Source: a virus. From it: a stretch of 64,000 bases of DNA. The stretch lies in the IMG/VR virus record IMGVR_UViG_3300025005_000002, positions 32,001 to 96,000 of that record, one strand, 5' to 3'. Made by a program: the position numbers and the translations under genes. The notes under the pieces are model-generated. The model did not search any database. It saw nothing but the letters and a program-made list of their open reading frames with translations, and was not told where the DNA came from. The first letter of the stretch is position 1. Every line of letters begins with the position of its first letter. Shown here piece by piece: positions 26,445 through 34,185 of this stretch.

Positions 26445-26913
26445 GGAGGATACAATGACGCATACCACTTTTGGTGATGTAGTCGGGGCATTTTCGATTG
26501 TAGTACTTGCGTGGTTGTTGTTTCATTGTTAAATGAAAGATTTTGTGGGTATTAATGACAAATTTATGTTTAAAGTGCAAACACAGTTATATACTAAAAA
26601 TAAAGTACAAGCCAATGCAAGGGGTGATATTTTAGACAAAATTGGTTGGGTATTACAGCCAGATAACCAACCATATATATCACGAAGATTATTTAAAAAA
26701 ATAGCCACGTTGTATTTCTCTTTATGATCAAATCTAAAATGATGTATGATATTCAAGAATTACTTGGTTGTGTAATACGGAACTATAAGATGTATCATCA
26801 ACGTAATACCGGTATATATCTATATAATGAATATAGTAAATTATGGAGTAGACTGGCACATTTAAGAATGTTTATGTTTGGAAAATATAAAGATTATGAA
26901 GAAGAGGAAATTA

Positions 26914-27348
26914 ATGACAAAAACAAATAAGGAACTAGGATATCATCAGTGTCCTGGTGTGCCAGAATTAATGCACAAGTGTTGTGCAAGATTAAGGTCT
27001 CGTATACACTGTGAACGATGTGAGAAAATAATTAAAGATGGGAAGGTGACAGTTGTTAGGCGTAGGAGATGCCCTGGGGTACCGGCTGTGGGTCATTCGT
27101 GTAACACTATGACCATCAAACCGCGTTGTCGTATATGTGATGGGATATATAATAAGCATCAGACATATCTAAAAAAGATTAGCAAAGAAAAGATCGAAAG
27201 GGTTTGTTTAAAATGTGATAGAAAATTTATTGCCAAAAATCGTTTCCTTCGTTTATGTGATGGTTGCCGTAGTGTTAATCGTTCATCTGAACATAGGGGG
27301 ATGGATGAAACTAGGTATTCCATAAGTTTTGGAGGGAGGGGAGGATGA
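26914..27348 (+). CDS. Cys-rich zinc-finger protein with internal repeat
   Basis: CPGVPELMHKC / CPGVPAVGHSC repeat; CLKCDRKF..RLCDGC. Confidence 0.6.
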   Translation: MTKTNKELGYHQCPGVPELMHKCCARLRSRIHCERCEKIIKDGKVTVVRRRRCPGVPAVGHSCNTMTIKPRCRICDGIYNKHQTYLKKISKEKIERVCLKCDRKFIAKNRFLRLCDGCRSVNRSSEHRGMDETRYSISFGGRGG

Positions 27349-28155: not shown

Positions 28156-28368
28156 ATGGAAGAATGGCCGTCTAATGGGGCCAGGCCCAAAAGAATGGCA
28201 CAACGCAAATGTCTTAAATGTGATGTAGAATTTCAAGCAAAAGATAGGTTCCATCGTTTATGTGATCCATGCAAGTGTATAAACGCTGGTATTGCTGATG
28301 TTGAGATTGAACTCCCTGAGGAGTTGCTAAAAAAATTACGCTTTCATCACTACTATAGGAGGAAGTAA
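28156..28368 (+). CDS. Small zinc-finger protein
   Basis: RKCLKCDVEFQAKDRFHRLCDPC matches the C-terminal finger of 26914..27348. Confidence 0.55.
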   Translation: MEEWPSNGARPKRMAQRKCLKCDVEFQAKDRFHRLCDPCKCINAGIADVEIELPEELLKKLRFHHYYRRK

Positions 28369-28763
28369 TGGGGAAAGAATATAAAGATGAGAAGATGGAT
28401 AAGGGAAAGGGGACAGACCTGGTAATATCTGTTCGCAATAAACTTACCAATGAAACGATTACGATGGACGCCGGAGAAGCTAACGAGCAATTTATTCTTA
28501 CTATGGTAAAAGCAAATGCGGATCGTGTGTTTATGGCAAAATCTTGTAGTTCGAAACTCTTGGTTGATCATCTCTTAAATGTTGTACAGGATAACAAGGA
28601 AGAGTTTATGATAGCCCTTGTTATTGCTACCACAACTGGAATGATTAATTTAAAAGAGATGAGTAAAAATATTAAGGTTCTTTCTATACCAATTGGTGAA
28701 GATGGCACTCCTAATTTCCCGAGCTTTGGCAACGATGACAAAAAGAAACCAACCTTTAACTAG
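28368..28763 (+). CDS. Hypothetical protein
   Basis: RBS AGGAGG; TAATG overlap. Confidence 0.6.
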   Translation: MGKEYKDEKMDKGKGTDLVISVRNKLTNETITMDAGEANEQFILTMVKANADRVFMAKSCSSKLLVDHLLNVVQDNKEEFMIALVIATTTGMINLKEMSKNIKVLSIPIGEDGTPNFPSFGNDDKKKPTFN

Positions 28764-28782
28764 AAAGGGGAGGAAGCGTAGG

Positions 28783-30462
28783 ATGGATGATAATGCAAAA
28801 CTGATGGAGGCCTTGGAGGTTATGAAGAAAAACCTCATTGAGGCCAAAAAAGTTATTATGGCACAAGAAGAGGTTTTGGATCAATTTCGTACCCCCCCCT
28901 TTCTTCAAGGTATCGTTATTGGTGGCGTTACTGGGCAGATAGAGTGGTCTAAGTTTGTTAAGGGTTTAAAGGTAAAACTTCGTAGGGATTCCAGTTTTGC
29001 CCATCAGAGTACAGTCCCCGGAGTAATACAAAAGATTGATGAGAGTGGTTGGGCTCAAGTCTTGTGGGATAACGGTAGTTCTAATTCGTATCGTACCGGT
29101 AAACCTGGGACTGACGAAGGTGTATGTGACCTTGAATTTGCTGAAAATTCACTTGGTGAAGAAATTTGTGTGCTTGAGGGTTCGTCGGTGCATTATGCCC
29201 AAAAGCCATATATTAGGGTAGAATTAGGCGATACGGTAACTCTAAATCCGATGACGAAGCAGGTAATTGGTGTCGTGGCTCCGGTGATATCTGGGGAGAT
29301 CCGATATGTTAATAAGGTGATATCAGATGAATTGGTGGAAGTCTCTCACCAGGATGCATCCAAAGTAGTACTCACTGGGAAATTTGCCAAAAAGATGGAA
29401 AAAGGGGACCGTGTTATTGTCGATAATACTGCAACAATTGTCCTGAACAACCTGGGAAAGGACGAGACAAAGTTTGAGGTTAAAACTTCATCAATGTCAA
29501 TCAACTGGGATGATATTGGTGGGTTGGAAGATGCAAAGAGAGAGATGGTCGAAATTGTGGAACTTCCTCATAAGTATAGCAATTTATATAAGTTTTATAA
29601 CAAGAAACCGGCAAAAGGGATCTTGTTGTGGGGCCCTCCTGGTTGTGGTAAGACCATGCTTGGAAAAGCAGCAGCTACTGCAATGGCTGCTATTCATAAG
29701 CAGAATGGCAATGGAAGCGGATTTCACTATATCAAGGGACCCGAGATCCTGGACAAATATGTGGGTGTGGCAGAGGCCACAATTCGCAGGATCTTCGAAA
29801 ATGCCAAAAAACACAAGGCTAAGAACGGGTTCCCTGCTGTAGTATTTATTGACGAAGCCGACGCCATCCTAGCTAGGCGTGGTTCTGGTATCAGTTCGGA
29901 CATAAATAATACCATCGTCCCGATGTTTTTGGCGGAGATGGATGGTATGGAAGAGTCTGGTGCACTGGTATTGCTTGCGACCAATAGGGCCGATGTACTT
30001 GATCCCGCAGTAACACGTGATGGGCGAATTGACAGGAAGATAAAAGTCACAAGGCCTACAGTGAAGTCTGCTGCTGAGATTTTTATGATCGCCTTAAAGG
30101 GCGTTCCCACCAATAAGGATATACCTAAGGTGGTACTCTCACAGAAGGCTTCTGAATCATTGTTTTCCGATACCAGAATATTATATGAGATTCGTACTAA
30201 AAGGGGTGGCATGATTCCGTTCACACTTAAGCAATTGGTGAATGGGGGGATGGTGGTCGGTATTGTGGATCAAGCGATTTCAATCGCTATCCACAAAGAC
30301 ATTAAGAGGTCAGCAAAGACTGGGGTATGTGAAGAGGATATAATGATGGCGATTGACAAGATTGAGGCACAGAACTGTGGGCTCAATCATAACACTGAAT
30401 TGGAAGAAGTTGTTGCTGGTTTTCGTGAAGATGTTACAAATATTATTCCTATAAGGAGGTAA
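28783..30462 (+). CDS. arc: ARC/Mpa-type proteasomal AAA+ ATPase
   Basis: N-terminal coiled coil ending TPP; WDDIGGL; Walker A GPPGCGKT; IKGPEILDKYVG; Walker B FIDE; RGSGISSDINNTIVPMFLAEMDG closely follows the ARC/Mpa consensus; RDGRID. Likely start ATG 28783. Confidence 0.88.
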   Translation: MDDNAKLMEALEVMKKNLIEAKKVIMAQEEVLDQFRTPPFLQGIVIGGVTGQIEWSKFVKGLKVKLRRDSSFAHQSTVPGVIQKIDESGWAQVLWDNGSSNSYRTGKPGTDEGVCDLEFAENSLGEEICVLEGSSVHYAQKPYIRVELGDTVTLNPMTKQVIGVVAPVISGEIRYVNKVISDELVEVSHQDASKVVLTGKFAKKMEKGDRVIVDNTATIVLNNLGKDETKFEVKTSSMSINWDDIGGLEDAKREMVEIVELPHKYSNLYKFYNKKPAKGILLWGPPGCGKTMLGKAAATAMAAIHKQNGNGSGFHYIKGPEILDKYVGVAEATIRRIFENAKKHKAKNGFPAVVFIDEADAILARRGSGISSDINNTIVPMFLAEMDGMEESGALVLLATNRADVLDPAVTRDGRIDRKIKVTRPTVKSAAEIFMIALKGVPTNKDIPKVVLSQKASESLFSDTRILYEIRTKRGGMIPFTLKQLVNGGMVVGIVDQAISIAIHKDIKRSAKTGVCEEDIMMAIDKIEAQNCGLNHNTELEEVVAGFREDVTNIIPIRR

Positions 30463-30465
30463 GTT

Positions 30466-30693
30466 GTGAGTGCACAGGAGCAGATTAAGAAGAGGTCGCA
30501 TAAAGGCGGTGGGGGGGGCGGTTCTAATGATTTTGACGGTCTTGGGCTTGAAATGGCCGTTATCCCCGGCGTTGATGAAGTGTTACGCAATTTAGATAGT
30601 GATATTAAGAATGTTGGTGGGTTGATTAATAGGACACAGGAAAGGATTAATCAGAGACAGGACCGGCGTCCTTCGCATAATTGTGAATGTTAA
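30466..30693 (+). CDS. Pup-like small protein (no C-terminal GGE/Q; ends CEC)
   Basis: MSAQEQIKKRSHKGGGGGGSNDFD versus Pup MAQEQTKRGGGGGDDDD; VDEVLRNLDSDI versus TDDLLDEIDDVL; RBS AGGAGGT directly after arc. Confidence 0.6.
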   Translation: MSAQEQIKKRSHKGGGGGGSNDFDGLGLEMAVIPGVDEVLRNLDSDIKNVGGLINRTQERINQRQDRRPSHNCEC

Positions 30694-30709
30694 TTTTGGA
30701 GGTGGCACA

Positions 30710-31045
30710 ATGTTTAATGGGCTGCTTGTTTGTTTAATACTGGCTGGTGCGGTGGCATCAATTTCTTGCTCCATTAGTAAGGCTGGGGTTATGAGACCCA
30801 TCAGGCAATGGGTCCGTAAAAAGAATGCATGGCTTGGTAAACTTGTGTCCTGTGTATATTGTACTAGCCACTGGATATCAGCGATATTAGTTATAATTTA
30901 TAGGCCAATCCCGTTGCGTTTAGTACAACCAATTGATTCAATAGTTGCCATATTTTTGATAGTGACTATGGCAGCTGGGATGATTTATTGGATTGATTGG
31001 TCTATTGGTTTTCAACCAGATCCACCACAAGAGGGTAATCAATGA
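30710..31045 (+). CDS. DUF1360-like membrane protein
   Basis: Hydrophobic helices with LVSCVYCTSHW (CxxC-x-x-x-W); RBS GGAGG before ATG 30710. Confidence 0.6.
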   Translation: MFNGLLVCLILAGAVASISCSISKAGVMRPIRQWVRKKNAWLGKLVSCVYCTSHWISAILVIIYRPIPLRLVQPIDSIVAIFLIVTMAAGMIYWIDWSIGFQPDPPQEGNQ

Positions 31046-33954: not shown

Positions 33955-34185
33955 ATGACTGAGTCTAACAAGGGTGAGAATATTATTACCATCGGCAAGA
34001 TCCCAGGTCAGCTGCATGAACTGGCAATTGATGGGAAGAAGAAGATCTGCGAGTTATTTGGTCTGATTGGGATTAAGGATTTGGGTAGCTGCGAGATCCA
34101 GAAGAACGGGAACAGCGCCGAAGTTAACGAATACGTCGAGGCCGGGGATACGGTTTTGGCGGTGGCCAAGATTCGTGGAAACTAA
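33955..34185 (+). CDS. Ubiquitin-like (beta-grasp) protein
   Basis: 76 aa; pattern IITIGKIPG..EIQKNG..VEAGDTVLAVAKIRGN; RBS AGGAGG; directly after E1. Confidence 0.8.
   Translation: MTESNKGENIITIGKIPGQLHELAIDGKKKICELFGLIGIKDLGSCEIQKNGNSAEVNEYVEAGDTVLAVAKIRGN

What the first reader, a model, noticed from the sequence alone, without database searches (positions are those of the whole stretch)
28963..29145. MIB/HERC2-like domain inserted in the ARC ATPase N-domain
Seen: between the coiled coil and the rest of the OB region lies GLKVKLRRD..GVIQKIDESGWAQVLWDNGSSNSYRTG..DLEF. Known: the Mib_herc2 SH3-like domain of eukaryotic E3 ligases (Mind bomb, HERC2) has, as I recall it, the pattern G.RV.RG.DW..GTV..GWV.V.WDNG..N.YR.G..YDL. 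Canonical ARC/Mpa has no such insert. Inference: a substrate- or tag-recognition module on the unfoldase, which is notable inside a ubiquitin-like operon.
Basis: partly seen in the sequence, partly recalled or inferred. Interest (0 to 1): 0.72.

Follow-up and report, generated by a model that had tools for sequence, protein, structure and literature searches.

The report
Swappable MIB/HERC2-like domain in phage unfoldase
A phage-encoded protein-unfolding ATPase of the bacterial proteasome-ATPase type carries, spliced into its entry ring, a small binding domain otherwise known from eukaryotic ubiquitin ligases, and close relatives show that this position is a hot spot where alternative binding domains are exchanged like cassettes.

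Summary
Gene 28783-30462 (+) encodes a 559-aa single-ring AAA+ ATPase built like Mpa/ARC: coiled coil, two OB domains, AAA module. Residues 48-127 (nt 28924-29163) interrupt the beta1-beta2 hairpin of OB1. They fold as a five-stranded SH3-like barrel. Pfam MIB_HERC2 scores below its cut-off (24.6 vs 33.5 bits). Homology is still well supported. A profile of the insert finds a eukaryotic ten-repeat MIB/HERC2 protein as best hit among 1.8 billion proteins (E 4.6e-26). hhalign gives 95% probability. The model superposes on the HECTD1 MIB/HERC2 domain (Z 9.1, 32% identity), while the rest superposes on Mpa (Z 11.4). The ATPase belongs to a large uncharacterised clade, named mostly from Patescibacteria genomes. 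It has no HbYX tail, and no 20S gene was found with it. In this clade the same loop holds nothing, KOW, tandem barrels, an unrelated ~100-aa domain, or MIB. Two loci about 93% identical in DNA differ only by this cassette. The insert is most likely a swappable target-recognition module; its ligand is unknown. It is probably neither the operon's Ubl nor the adjacent Pup-like protein. The scan noted the same insert only on an overlapping window of this genome.

The parts
28783..30462 (+). Gene for a 559-aa single-ring AAA+ ATPase of the Mpa/ARC/PAN type. The ATG at 28783 matches the N-termini of homologues.
   Evidence: ORF; alignment with P0002-P0004. The best NCBIfam hit is pup_AAA TIGR03689, E 4e-89 and 299.6 bits, below the 504.75 cut-off. 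PDB Mpa chains match at E 2e-57.
28783..28893 (+). N-terminal coiled-coil helix (residues 1-37), ending in the TPP hinge.
   Evidence: AF2 helix 2-36 with pLDDT 85-93. It aligns to the Mpa coiled coil in 3m9b_A, model 1-229 to Mpa 61-237, Z 11.4.
28894..28923 (+). First strand of OB1 (residues 38-47, PPFLQGIVIG).
   Evidence: Strand 41-45. The motif is conserved as PPxxYATVV across the family.
28924..29163 (+). MIB/HERC2-like SH3-fold cassette (residues 48-127) inserted in the OB1 beta1-beta2 hairpin. The finding's 28963-29145 is its core.
   Evidence: Five strands with pLDDT 92-96. VIA Z 9.1, rmsd 2.9, 74 of 79 residues, 32% identity to HECTD1 3dkm; Z 7.8 to MIB1 4xi7. Foldseek TM 0.69. Profile hits. 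hhalign probability 95.1.
29164..29280 (+). Remainder of OB1 (residues 128-166).
   Evidence: Strands 129-165. Aligned to Mpa OB1. In relative P0067, Pfam Prot_ATP_ID_OB_N profile positions 14-62 follow the insert.
29281..29466 (+). OB2 (residues 167-228).
   Evidence: Strands 172-225 with pLDDT about 90. Aligned to Mpa OB2. Weak Prot_ATP_ID_OB_C hit.
29500..30459 (+). AAA+ module and C-terminal helical domain. Walker A is at 29632-29655, pore loop KYVG at 29755-29766, Walker B at 29842-29862, and arginine fingers at 30016-30036. The C-terminus is ...IPIRR, with no HbYX/GQYL.
   Evidence: Pfam AAA E 2e-32; motif positions and C-termini.
30466..30693 (+). 75-aa small protein that always follows the ATPase. 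It has an N-terminal M..QE..K..GGGG stretch, an acidic helix and a C-terminal C-x-C. It is context, not part of the insert.
   Evidence: Conserved in 7 loci, phage and cellular. Present after the ATPase. No Pfam hit.
30683..31045 (+). DUF1360-like membrane protein, third member of the conserved triad (context).
   Evidence: PF07098 on the neighbouring gene in L001, L002, L006, L008, L010, L017 and L018.

Best explanation
The gene encodes a hexameric, Mpa-like protein unfoldase: coiled coil, OB1, OB2, then an AAA+ motor with intact Walker A and B, pore loop and arginine fingers. A complete MIB/HERC2-type SH3-like barrel of about 80 residues has been spliced into the beta1-beta2 hairpin of OB1. 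The barrel is homologous to the peptide- and protein-binding domain of the eukaryotic E3 ligases Mind bomb, HERC2 and HECTD1. In the wider ATPase clade, found in Patescibacteria-type genomes, their mobile elements and phages, this hairpin is a cassette site. It can hold nothing, KOW, tandem barrels, an unrelated ~100-aa domain, MIB, or combinations. The cassettes are exchanged between otherwise near-identical genes. The insert therefore most likely acts as a modular recognition domain, with six copies on the substrate-entry side of the ring. It would select which protein or peptide is brought to the pore, and its ligand lies outside the conserved operon partners. Shown here: the sequence, the fold, the homology, the insertion topology, and the cassette exchange. 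Inferred: hexamer formation, the position next to the pore entrance, peptide or protein binding, and delivery of the bound target for unfolding.
For: Architecture and topology: the AF2 model has pLDDT 82.8. Mpa superposes at Z 11.4, rmsd 2.0, model 38-227 to Mpa 97-235 with the insert looped out. 3m9b superposes including the coiled coil (Foldseek E 1e-6). Domain identity: HECTD1 MIB/HERC2 gives Z 9.1, 32% identity and TM 0.69. The PDB profile search gives HECTD1 and MIB1 as top hits. The exhaustive profile search gives 162 hits, and the best is the Kipferlia MIB/HERC2 protein at E 4.6e-26, with ten Pfam MIB_HERC2 repeats at 432.7 bits. Of 68 short hits, 37 are Pfam MIB_HERC2. hhalign gives probability 95.1 and E 3e-8 over 55 columns. 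Cassette site: the insert length spectrum runs from 13 to 259 residues at the same loop in 123 relatives, with 58 of 111 newly found relatives carrying MIB. KOW reaches the Pfam cut-off in P0204. A tree of the OB2+AAA part interleaves the insert types. P0166 (MIB) and P0219 (other cassette) are 95.9% identical over 394 aa. Their loci are about 93% identical in DNA through the upstream gene, ATPase, small protein and DUF1360, except for the cassette. The functional ATPase motifs are intact. The MZM (Mib-Herc2-ZZ-Mib-Herc2) module of MIB1 binds a short peptide epitope of Notch ligands (PMC11887331).
Against: No binding partner was identified, and no experiment or complex model supports binding. 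The position of the insert relative to the pore and coiled coils in a hexamer was not modelled; the monomer pTM is only 0.49. Pfam's MIB_HERC2 gathering threshold is not met. SH3-like barrels (KOW, Tudor) also give Z of about 7.8, so part of the structural signal is generic to the fold. Cassette exchange shows modularity, but not what the module does.
Confidence: 0.6

Rival explanations
1. The insert is a receptor for the operon's own ubiquitin-like protein (33955-34185). Ubl-conjugated proteins made by the adjacent E1/E2 enzymes would dock on the ATPase, analogous to ubiquitin receptors of the 26S proteasome.
For: The ATPase lies in or near E1 (ThiF), JAB and Ubl genes in the window and in L006, L007, L008 and L011. 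The Ubls share a C-terminal G-G/N end. Some eukaryotic SH3-fold domains are annotated as ubiquitin-binding; the Pfam family SH3-C_UBE2O appeared among hits.
Against: Cassette type does not track the Ubl genes. The insert-less P0254 (L011) sits next to ThiF and a Ubl. The MIB-bearing L009 and L017 have no E1 in the DNA read, about 8 kb on each side in L009 and the whole 4.8-kb contig for L017. MIB and a non-MIB cassette alternate in otherwise 93% identical loci.
Confidence: 0.14
2. The insert binds the adjacent Pup-like small protein (30466-30693), for example its C-terminal C-x-C tail, as a second contact besides the coiled coil.
For: The small protein is invariably encoded right after the ATPase. 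It is largely low-complexity or disordered-looking, the kind of ligand that the MZM module of MIB1 binds.
Against: The small proteins of L017 (MIB cassette) and L018 (unrelated cassette) are 57/62 identical. The small protein also follows ATPases with other cassettes, as in L010. Its partner site should therefore be in the conserved part of the ATPase.
Confidence: 0.07
3. The insert has a structural or regulatory role, such as stabilising the OB ring, gating the pore, or localising the enzyme at the membrane protein DUF1360, rather than selecting targets.
For: It sits in a ring-forming domain. A membrane protein is a constant neighbour. Insert-less relatives exist, so the insert is not needed for the core mechanism.
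Against: Replacement by unrelated folds of very different size (13 to 259 residues) in near-identical ATPases is hard to reconcile with a fixed structural role. DUF1360 is 117/128 identical between loci with different cassettes.
Confidence: 0.12
4. The resemblance is chance, and the segment is only an extended OB loop.
For: The Pfam score is under the gathering cut-off and aligns only 26 profile positions.
Against: Independent sequence-profile, profile-profile and structure comparisons all point to MIB/HERC2. The segment is modelled with pLDDT 92-96 as an autonomous five-stranded barrel.
Confidence: 0.02

Closest known systems
Mpa/ARC, the proteasome-associated AAA ATPase of Actinobacteria (PDB 3m9b, 5kwa, 7ljf, 7px9)
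   Same: The domain order is the same: coiled coil, OB1, OB2, one AAA+ module. It is the best NCBIfam hit (TIGR03689, E 4e-89). The N-domain superposes at Z 11.4 and rmsd 2.0. A small, glycine-rich, largely unstructured-looking protein is encoded next to it, with an N-terminus that resembles Pup from my own recollection of the Pup sequence.
   Different: It scores below the equivalog cut-off (299.6 vs 504.75 bits). OB1 carries an 80-aa insert. There is no GQYL/HbYX tail: 2 of 111 relatives have a penultimate Tyr. No 20S or PafA/Dop was found in the phage, and no 20S in five genomes with relatives. The neighbours are E1, E2-like, JAB and Ubl genes rather than pupylation genes.
MIB/HERC2 domain (Pfam PF06701) of the eukaryotic E3 ligases MIB1/2, HERC2 and HECTD1 (PDB 3dkm, 2dk3, 4xi6/4xi7)
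   Same: It is a five-stranded SH3-like barrel. The shared motifs are G-x-[RK]-V, G-x-G-x-[VI], GW-x-x-V-x-[WF]-D-x-G-x-x-N-x-YR-x-G and DL. Identity is 32%, Z 9.1. hhalign probability is 95%. The known role is binding short peptide epitopes.
   Different: It is under Pfam's threshold. The DW-x-W..QDGG segment is replaced by R-x-DS-x-[FY]..Q. It is found in a phage or bacterial unfoldase instead of a RING or HECT ligase. It is inserted inside another domain rather than placed in tandem.
PAN and Rpt1-6 N-domains (PDB 2wg5, 3h43, 26S proteasome structures)
   Same: A coiled coil plus an OB ring in front of the AAA motor (Z about 8).
   Different: These have one OB domain only, no insert, and dock on a 20S core.
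N-domains of Cdc48/p97/VAT
   Same: Conceptually similar: a substrate- or adaptor-binding module in front of the ring of a classical-clade AAA unfoldase. The AAA modules are closely related (E 1e-85 to VAT).
   Different: The N-domain fold differs (double-psi barrel, from textbook knowledge). They have two AAA rings, and no cassette variation is known.

Membership tests
MIB/HERC2 domain (Pfam PF06701) | Score at or above Pfam's gathering threshold (33.5 bits) | tested here: not met
   24.6 bits, E 2.4e-5, profile positions 34-59 only. All four close homologues hit, all below threshold. Relative P0067 matches profile positions 1-56 at 24 bits.
MIB/HERC2 domain (Pfam PF06701) | Reciprocal profile relationship with bona fide members | tested here: met
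   The insert profile's best hit among 1.84 billion proteins is a Kipferlia protein with ten Pfam MIB_HERC2 repeats (E 4.6e-26; Pfam 432.7 bits). 37 of 68 short hits are Pfam MIB_HERC2. hhalign probability is 95.1.
MIB/HERC2 domain (Pfam PF06701) | Five-stranded SH3-like barrel superposable on solved MIB/HERC2 domains | tested here: met
   3dkm: Z 9.1, rmsd 2.9, 74 of 79 residues, 32% identity. 2dk3: Z 8.0. 4xi7: Z 7.8. Foldseek TM 0.69. The model pLDDT is 92-96 in this part.
MIB/HERC2 domain (Pfam PF06701) | Binds a peptide or protein ligand | not testable with these tools
   Known for the MZM module of MIB1 with Notch-ligand N-box peptides (PMC11887331). No ligand is known here.
ARC/Mpa proteasome ATPase (NCBIfam TIGR03689) | Equivalog score cut-off (504.75 bits) | tested here: not met
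   299.6 bits over residues 146-541. It is the top hit but below the cut-off.
ARC/Mpa proteasome ATPase (NCBIfam TIGR03689) | Coiled coil, tandem OB domains and a single AAA+ module | tested here: met
ARC/Mpa proteasome ATPase (NCBIfam TIGR03689) | C-terminal GQYL/HbYX motif for docking on 20S | tested here: not met
   The protein ends IPIRR. The penultimate residue is Tyr in only 2 of 111 relatives.
ARC/Mpa proteasome ATPase (NCBIfam TIGR03689) | Co-occurrence with 20S proteasome and the Pup ligase PafA/Dop | tested here: not met
   No PF00227 or PF03136 match in the 178-kb virus record. No PF00227 match in five genomes that encode relatives. Incomplete genomes limit the weight of this result.
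Classical-clade AAA+ unfoldase | Walker A and B, aromatic pore loop, sensor 1 and arginine fingers intact | tested here: met
   GPPGCGKT 284-291, FIDEAD 355-360, KYVG 325-328, ATNR, RDGRIDR 412-418. Pfam AAA E 2e-32.

The most novel reading that the evidence does not exclude
This ATPase clade is a programmable unfoldase of a so far undescribed system in Patescibacteria-type bacteria, their mobile elements and phages. The system comprises the ATPase, a Pup-like C-x-C protein and a DUF1360 membrane protein, often with E1/E2/JAB/Ubl genes. In it, the OB1 cassette (MIB, KOW or others) sets target specificity and is shuffled under conflict-driven diversifying selection. The MIB/HERC2 domain of eukaryotic E3 ligases would then have prokaryotic or viral relatives that already worked beside ubiquitin-like conjugation machinery.
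Probability: 0.3. Interest if true: 0.82.

Novelty: new variant of a known kind. Interest (0 to 1): 0.66.

Why it matters
MIB/HERC2 domains are known to me only as substrate-binding modules of eukaryotic ubiquitin ligases. Here a clear relative sits inside the entry ring of a bacterial or phage Mpa-like unfoldase, encoded next to E1, E2-like, JAB and Ubl genes. This gives a prokaryotic and viral context for the domain. It also gives a new way to equip an AAA+ unfoldase with a receptor: a domain inserted into an OB loop. The cassette exchange between near-identical genes is a natural experiment that points to the insert as the specificity determinant, and it offers matched pairs for testing. 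I found no paper describing this clade or architecture in four full-text searches. There was no match in 50,697 deposited phage genomes.

Tried and rejected
- DUF4314 (PF14192) as the domain's identity. It gave a weak hit at 19.8 bits, but only 3 of 68 profile hits match it against 37 for MIB_HERC2, and no paper mentions it.
- First AF2 model from four close sequences. It was too poor overall (pLDDT 51), although its Foldseek top hit was already HECTD1. It was replaced by a model from 43 sequences.
- A container alignment of 96 full-length hits failed.
- The search for related loci with the N-domain alignment A9 found no searchable stretch. None of the 15 viral loci carries the MIB cassette, so the counts are lower bounds and not a census.
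- PADLOC gave only generic AAA (IetA, TRIP13) and E1-E2 matches, so this is no known defence system.
- PHROGs gave generic AAA families and one weak hit of the insert to phrog_9469.
- The second AAA gene in L008 is not a paralogue with an OB N-domain. The phage has only one copy of the ATPase.
- Complex prediction was not used. The comparative data lowered the prior for either operon partner, and a pass would not have been decisive.
- Literature searches for a bacterial MIB/HERC2 domain, for DUF1360 with ubiquitin, and for a Patescibacteria proteasome-type ATPase found nothing relevant.

Full report
**The observation.** The window is part of a 178-kb IMG/VR virus record estimated 92% complete. 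The ORF at 28693-30462 (+) contains an ATG at 28783 that matches the N-termini of its closest homologues. Counted from that ATG the protein has 559 residues.

**The ATPase.**
- Pfam finds one AAA module (E 2e-32).
- The best NCBIfam family is the proteasome ATPase pup_AAA (TIGR03689). It scores E 4e-89 and 299.6 bits over residues 146-541, below the equivalog cut-off of 504.75.
- PDB Mpa chains match from the OB region to the C-terminal domain.
- Walker A, Walker B, the KYVG pore loop, sensor 1 and the arginine fingers are intact.
- The protein ends IPIRR. Only 2 of 111 relatives have a Tyr at the penultimate position, so the HbYX/GQYL docking motif is absent from the clade.
- The virus record has no match to the 20S proteasome family or to the Pup ligase family. 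Five genomes that encode relatives have no 20S match either.
- The enzyme therefore works like Mpa but is not an ARC orthologue.

**What the insert is, by sequence.**
- Pfam MIB_HERC2 hits the segment in all four close homologues, but below threshold (24.6 vs 33.5 bits) and only over profile positions 34-59.
- A profile of the segment from these four sequences (A2) finds the MIB/HERC2 domains of HECTD1 (E 3.6e-4) and MIB1 (E 2.7e-3) as the best PDB sequences.
- The same profile, scored against 1.84 billion representative proteins, gives 162 hits at E <= 1e-3.
- The top hit (E 4.6e-26) is a Kipferlia bialata protein named as MIB/HERC2 domain-containing. It carries ten Pfam MIB_HERC2 repeats at 432.7 bits.
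- Of 68 short hits, 37 match Pfam MIB_HERC2 and only 3 match DUF4314.
- hhalign of a nine-sequence insert alignment against that eukaryotic protein gives probability 95.1% and E 3e-8 over 55 columns, covering strands 1-4.

**What the insert is, by structure.**
- With a 43-sequence alignment, AF2 gives an N-domain model of mean pLDDT 82.8. The insert has pLDDT 92-96 and forms five strands.
- VIA-align gives Z 9.1, rmsd 2.9, 74 of 79 residues and 32% identity to the HECTD1 domain (3dkm) for model residues 48-125. It gives Z 7.8 to MIB1.
- Foldseek gives TM 0.69.
- Generic SH3-like barrels such as KOW reach Z of about 7.8, so the MIB/HERC2 match stands only modestly above them. It is the one backed by sequence.

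**That it is an insertion.**
- In the model one OB1 strand (41-45) precedes the barrel and the other OB1 strands (129-165) follow it. OB2 is residues 172-225.
- Mpa superposes at Z 11.4 and rmsd 2.0, model 38-227 on Mpa 97-235, with 115 aligned residues. The barrel is therefore looped out. 3m9b also aligns the coiled coil.
- In relative P0067, Pfam places MIB_HERC2 at 152-203 and then positions 14-62 of the OB N-terminal domain profile at 231-281.
- Family member P0254 has 13 residues at this loop, where the phage protein has about 83.

**The family and the cassette site.**
- A profile of 14 ATPases finds 1,944 proteins at E <= 1e-60. The best 120 are 42-56% identical to the phage protein over its full length.
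- Sources name them AAA family ATPase of Candidatus Kerfeldbacteria or Staskawiczbacteria. Related loci lie in Saccharibacteria and Patescibacteria MAGs.
- Of 111 newly retrieved members, 58 carry the MIB-like domain about 160 residues before Walker A.
- At the same loop others carry nothing, a 49-aa basic segment, a KOW-like barrel (Pfam KOW at its cut-off in P0204), a ~100-aa domain without a Pfam match, tandem barrels, or two KOW-like barrels plus MIB.
- A tree of the OB2+AAA part interleaves these types.
- P0166 (MIB) and P0219 (the ~100-aa type) are 95.9% identical over 394 residues.
- Their loci, L017 and L018, are about 93% identical in DNA through the upstream gene, the ATPase, the small protein and DUF1360. 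The exceptions are the cassette, about 81 codons against about 100, and an N-terminal extension.
- This is a precise cassette exchange between alleles.

**Context.**
- The ATPase is always followed by a 59-78-aa protein with M..Q...K..GGGG, an acidic helix and a terminal C-x-C. A DUF1360 membrane protein usually follows that.
- E1 (ThiF), JAB and Ubl genes lie nearby in the window and in L006, L007, L008 and L011.
- No E1 was seen in the DNA read for L009, L010, L017 or L018.
- The insert-less ATPase of L011 is next to ThiF and a Ubl.
- The small protein (57/62) and DUF1360 (117/128) are nearly identical between loci with different cassettes.
- The cassette's ligand is therefore unlikely to be one of these partners.
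- Neighbours of cellular copies include restriction-modification genes, Fic, a reverse transcriptase, recombinases and ParA. This hints at mobile or conflict-related islands, but PADLOC knows no such system.

**Mechanism.**
- Shown: an intact Mpa-like unfoldase with a MIB/HERC2-type barrel inserted in the OB1 hairpin, at a site where alternative barrels are exchanged.
- Inferred from Mpa and PAN structures, and from the role of the MZM module in MIB1: six barrels sit on the entry side of the OB ring and recruit a peptide or protein, which the motor then unfolds.
- I put 0.6 on this model.
- The rivals are a Ubl receptor at 0.14, a second site for the small protein at 0.07, a structural or regulatory role at 0.12, and chance at 0.02.

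**Novelty.**
- No deposited phage genome has a similar N-domain.
- Fifteen other IMG/VR contigs encode related ATPases, none with this cassette.
- Four full-text searches found no paper describing the architecture or the clade.
- The scan had noted the same insert only on an overlapping window of this genome, and nothing on other DNA.
- I rate it a new variant of a known kind.

Noticed in passing
window 30466-30693; L001 7873-8109; L002 3611-3829; L006 11722-11904; L008 9694-9888; L009 9705-9893; L017 4025-4213; L018 4397-4585: The small protein after the ATPase is conserved from phage to cellular loci. It has an N-terminal M..Q(E)..K..K, then a glycine run, an acidic helix and an invariant terminal C-x-C (CEC, CSC, CTC, CRC, CDYC). 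From my recollection of the Pup sequence its N-terminus resembles Pup, but Pfam finds nothing and no Pup ligase is present.
   Followed up: partly
L017 2318-4009 versus L018 2543-4381: The alternative ~100-aa cassette (consensus around ...G.Y.[LV]GD.L.L...A.K..[IV]VGF...V[IV]Q[LI]D...) has no Pfam match. It occupies the same OB1 loop in at least 26 relatives. Its fold was not examined.
   Followed up: no
L009 7708-8004; L010 7708-8004; L011 7708-8001; L017 2031-2321; L018 2253-2546: A gene of about 97 aa overlaps the ATPase start in cellular loci and is 86/96 identical between L017 and L018. Whether the phage ORF at window 28368-28763 (131 aa) is related was not tested.
   Followed up: no
L008 11068-16603: In a 284-kb MAG contig the ATPase, small protein and DUF1360 triad is followed by a second, unrelated AAA protein (558 aa), two proteins of about 280 aa, an 86-aa Ubl-like protein, Prok-JAB and ThiF. 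This is a cellular counterpart of the phage operon's gene order.
   Followed up: partly
window 26878-27348 and 28156-28368: Two small cysteine-rich ORFs upstream of the ATPase share a repeated motif (C-L-K-C-D...F.A K.RF.RLCD.C), suggesting paralogous zinc-ribbon proteins.
   Followed up: no
L019-L033 (IMG/VR contigs up to 436 kb): At least 15 other viral contigs, several from very large phages, encode Mpa-like ATPases with OB domains but without the MIB cassette. Proteasome-type unfoldases may be more common in large phages than in deposited phage genomes, which gave no match.
   Followed up: partly
P0013, P0014, P0020, P0026, P0028 and other hits: Many stand-alone proteins of 70-190 aa and tandem-repeat proteins from metagenomes match the insert profile at 50-74 bits. 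This suggests a sizeable non-eukaryotic radiation of MIB/HERC2-like barrels that Pfam's model mostly misses.
   Followed up: partly
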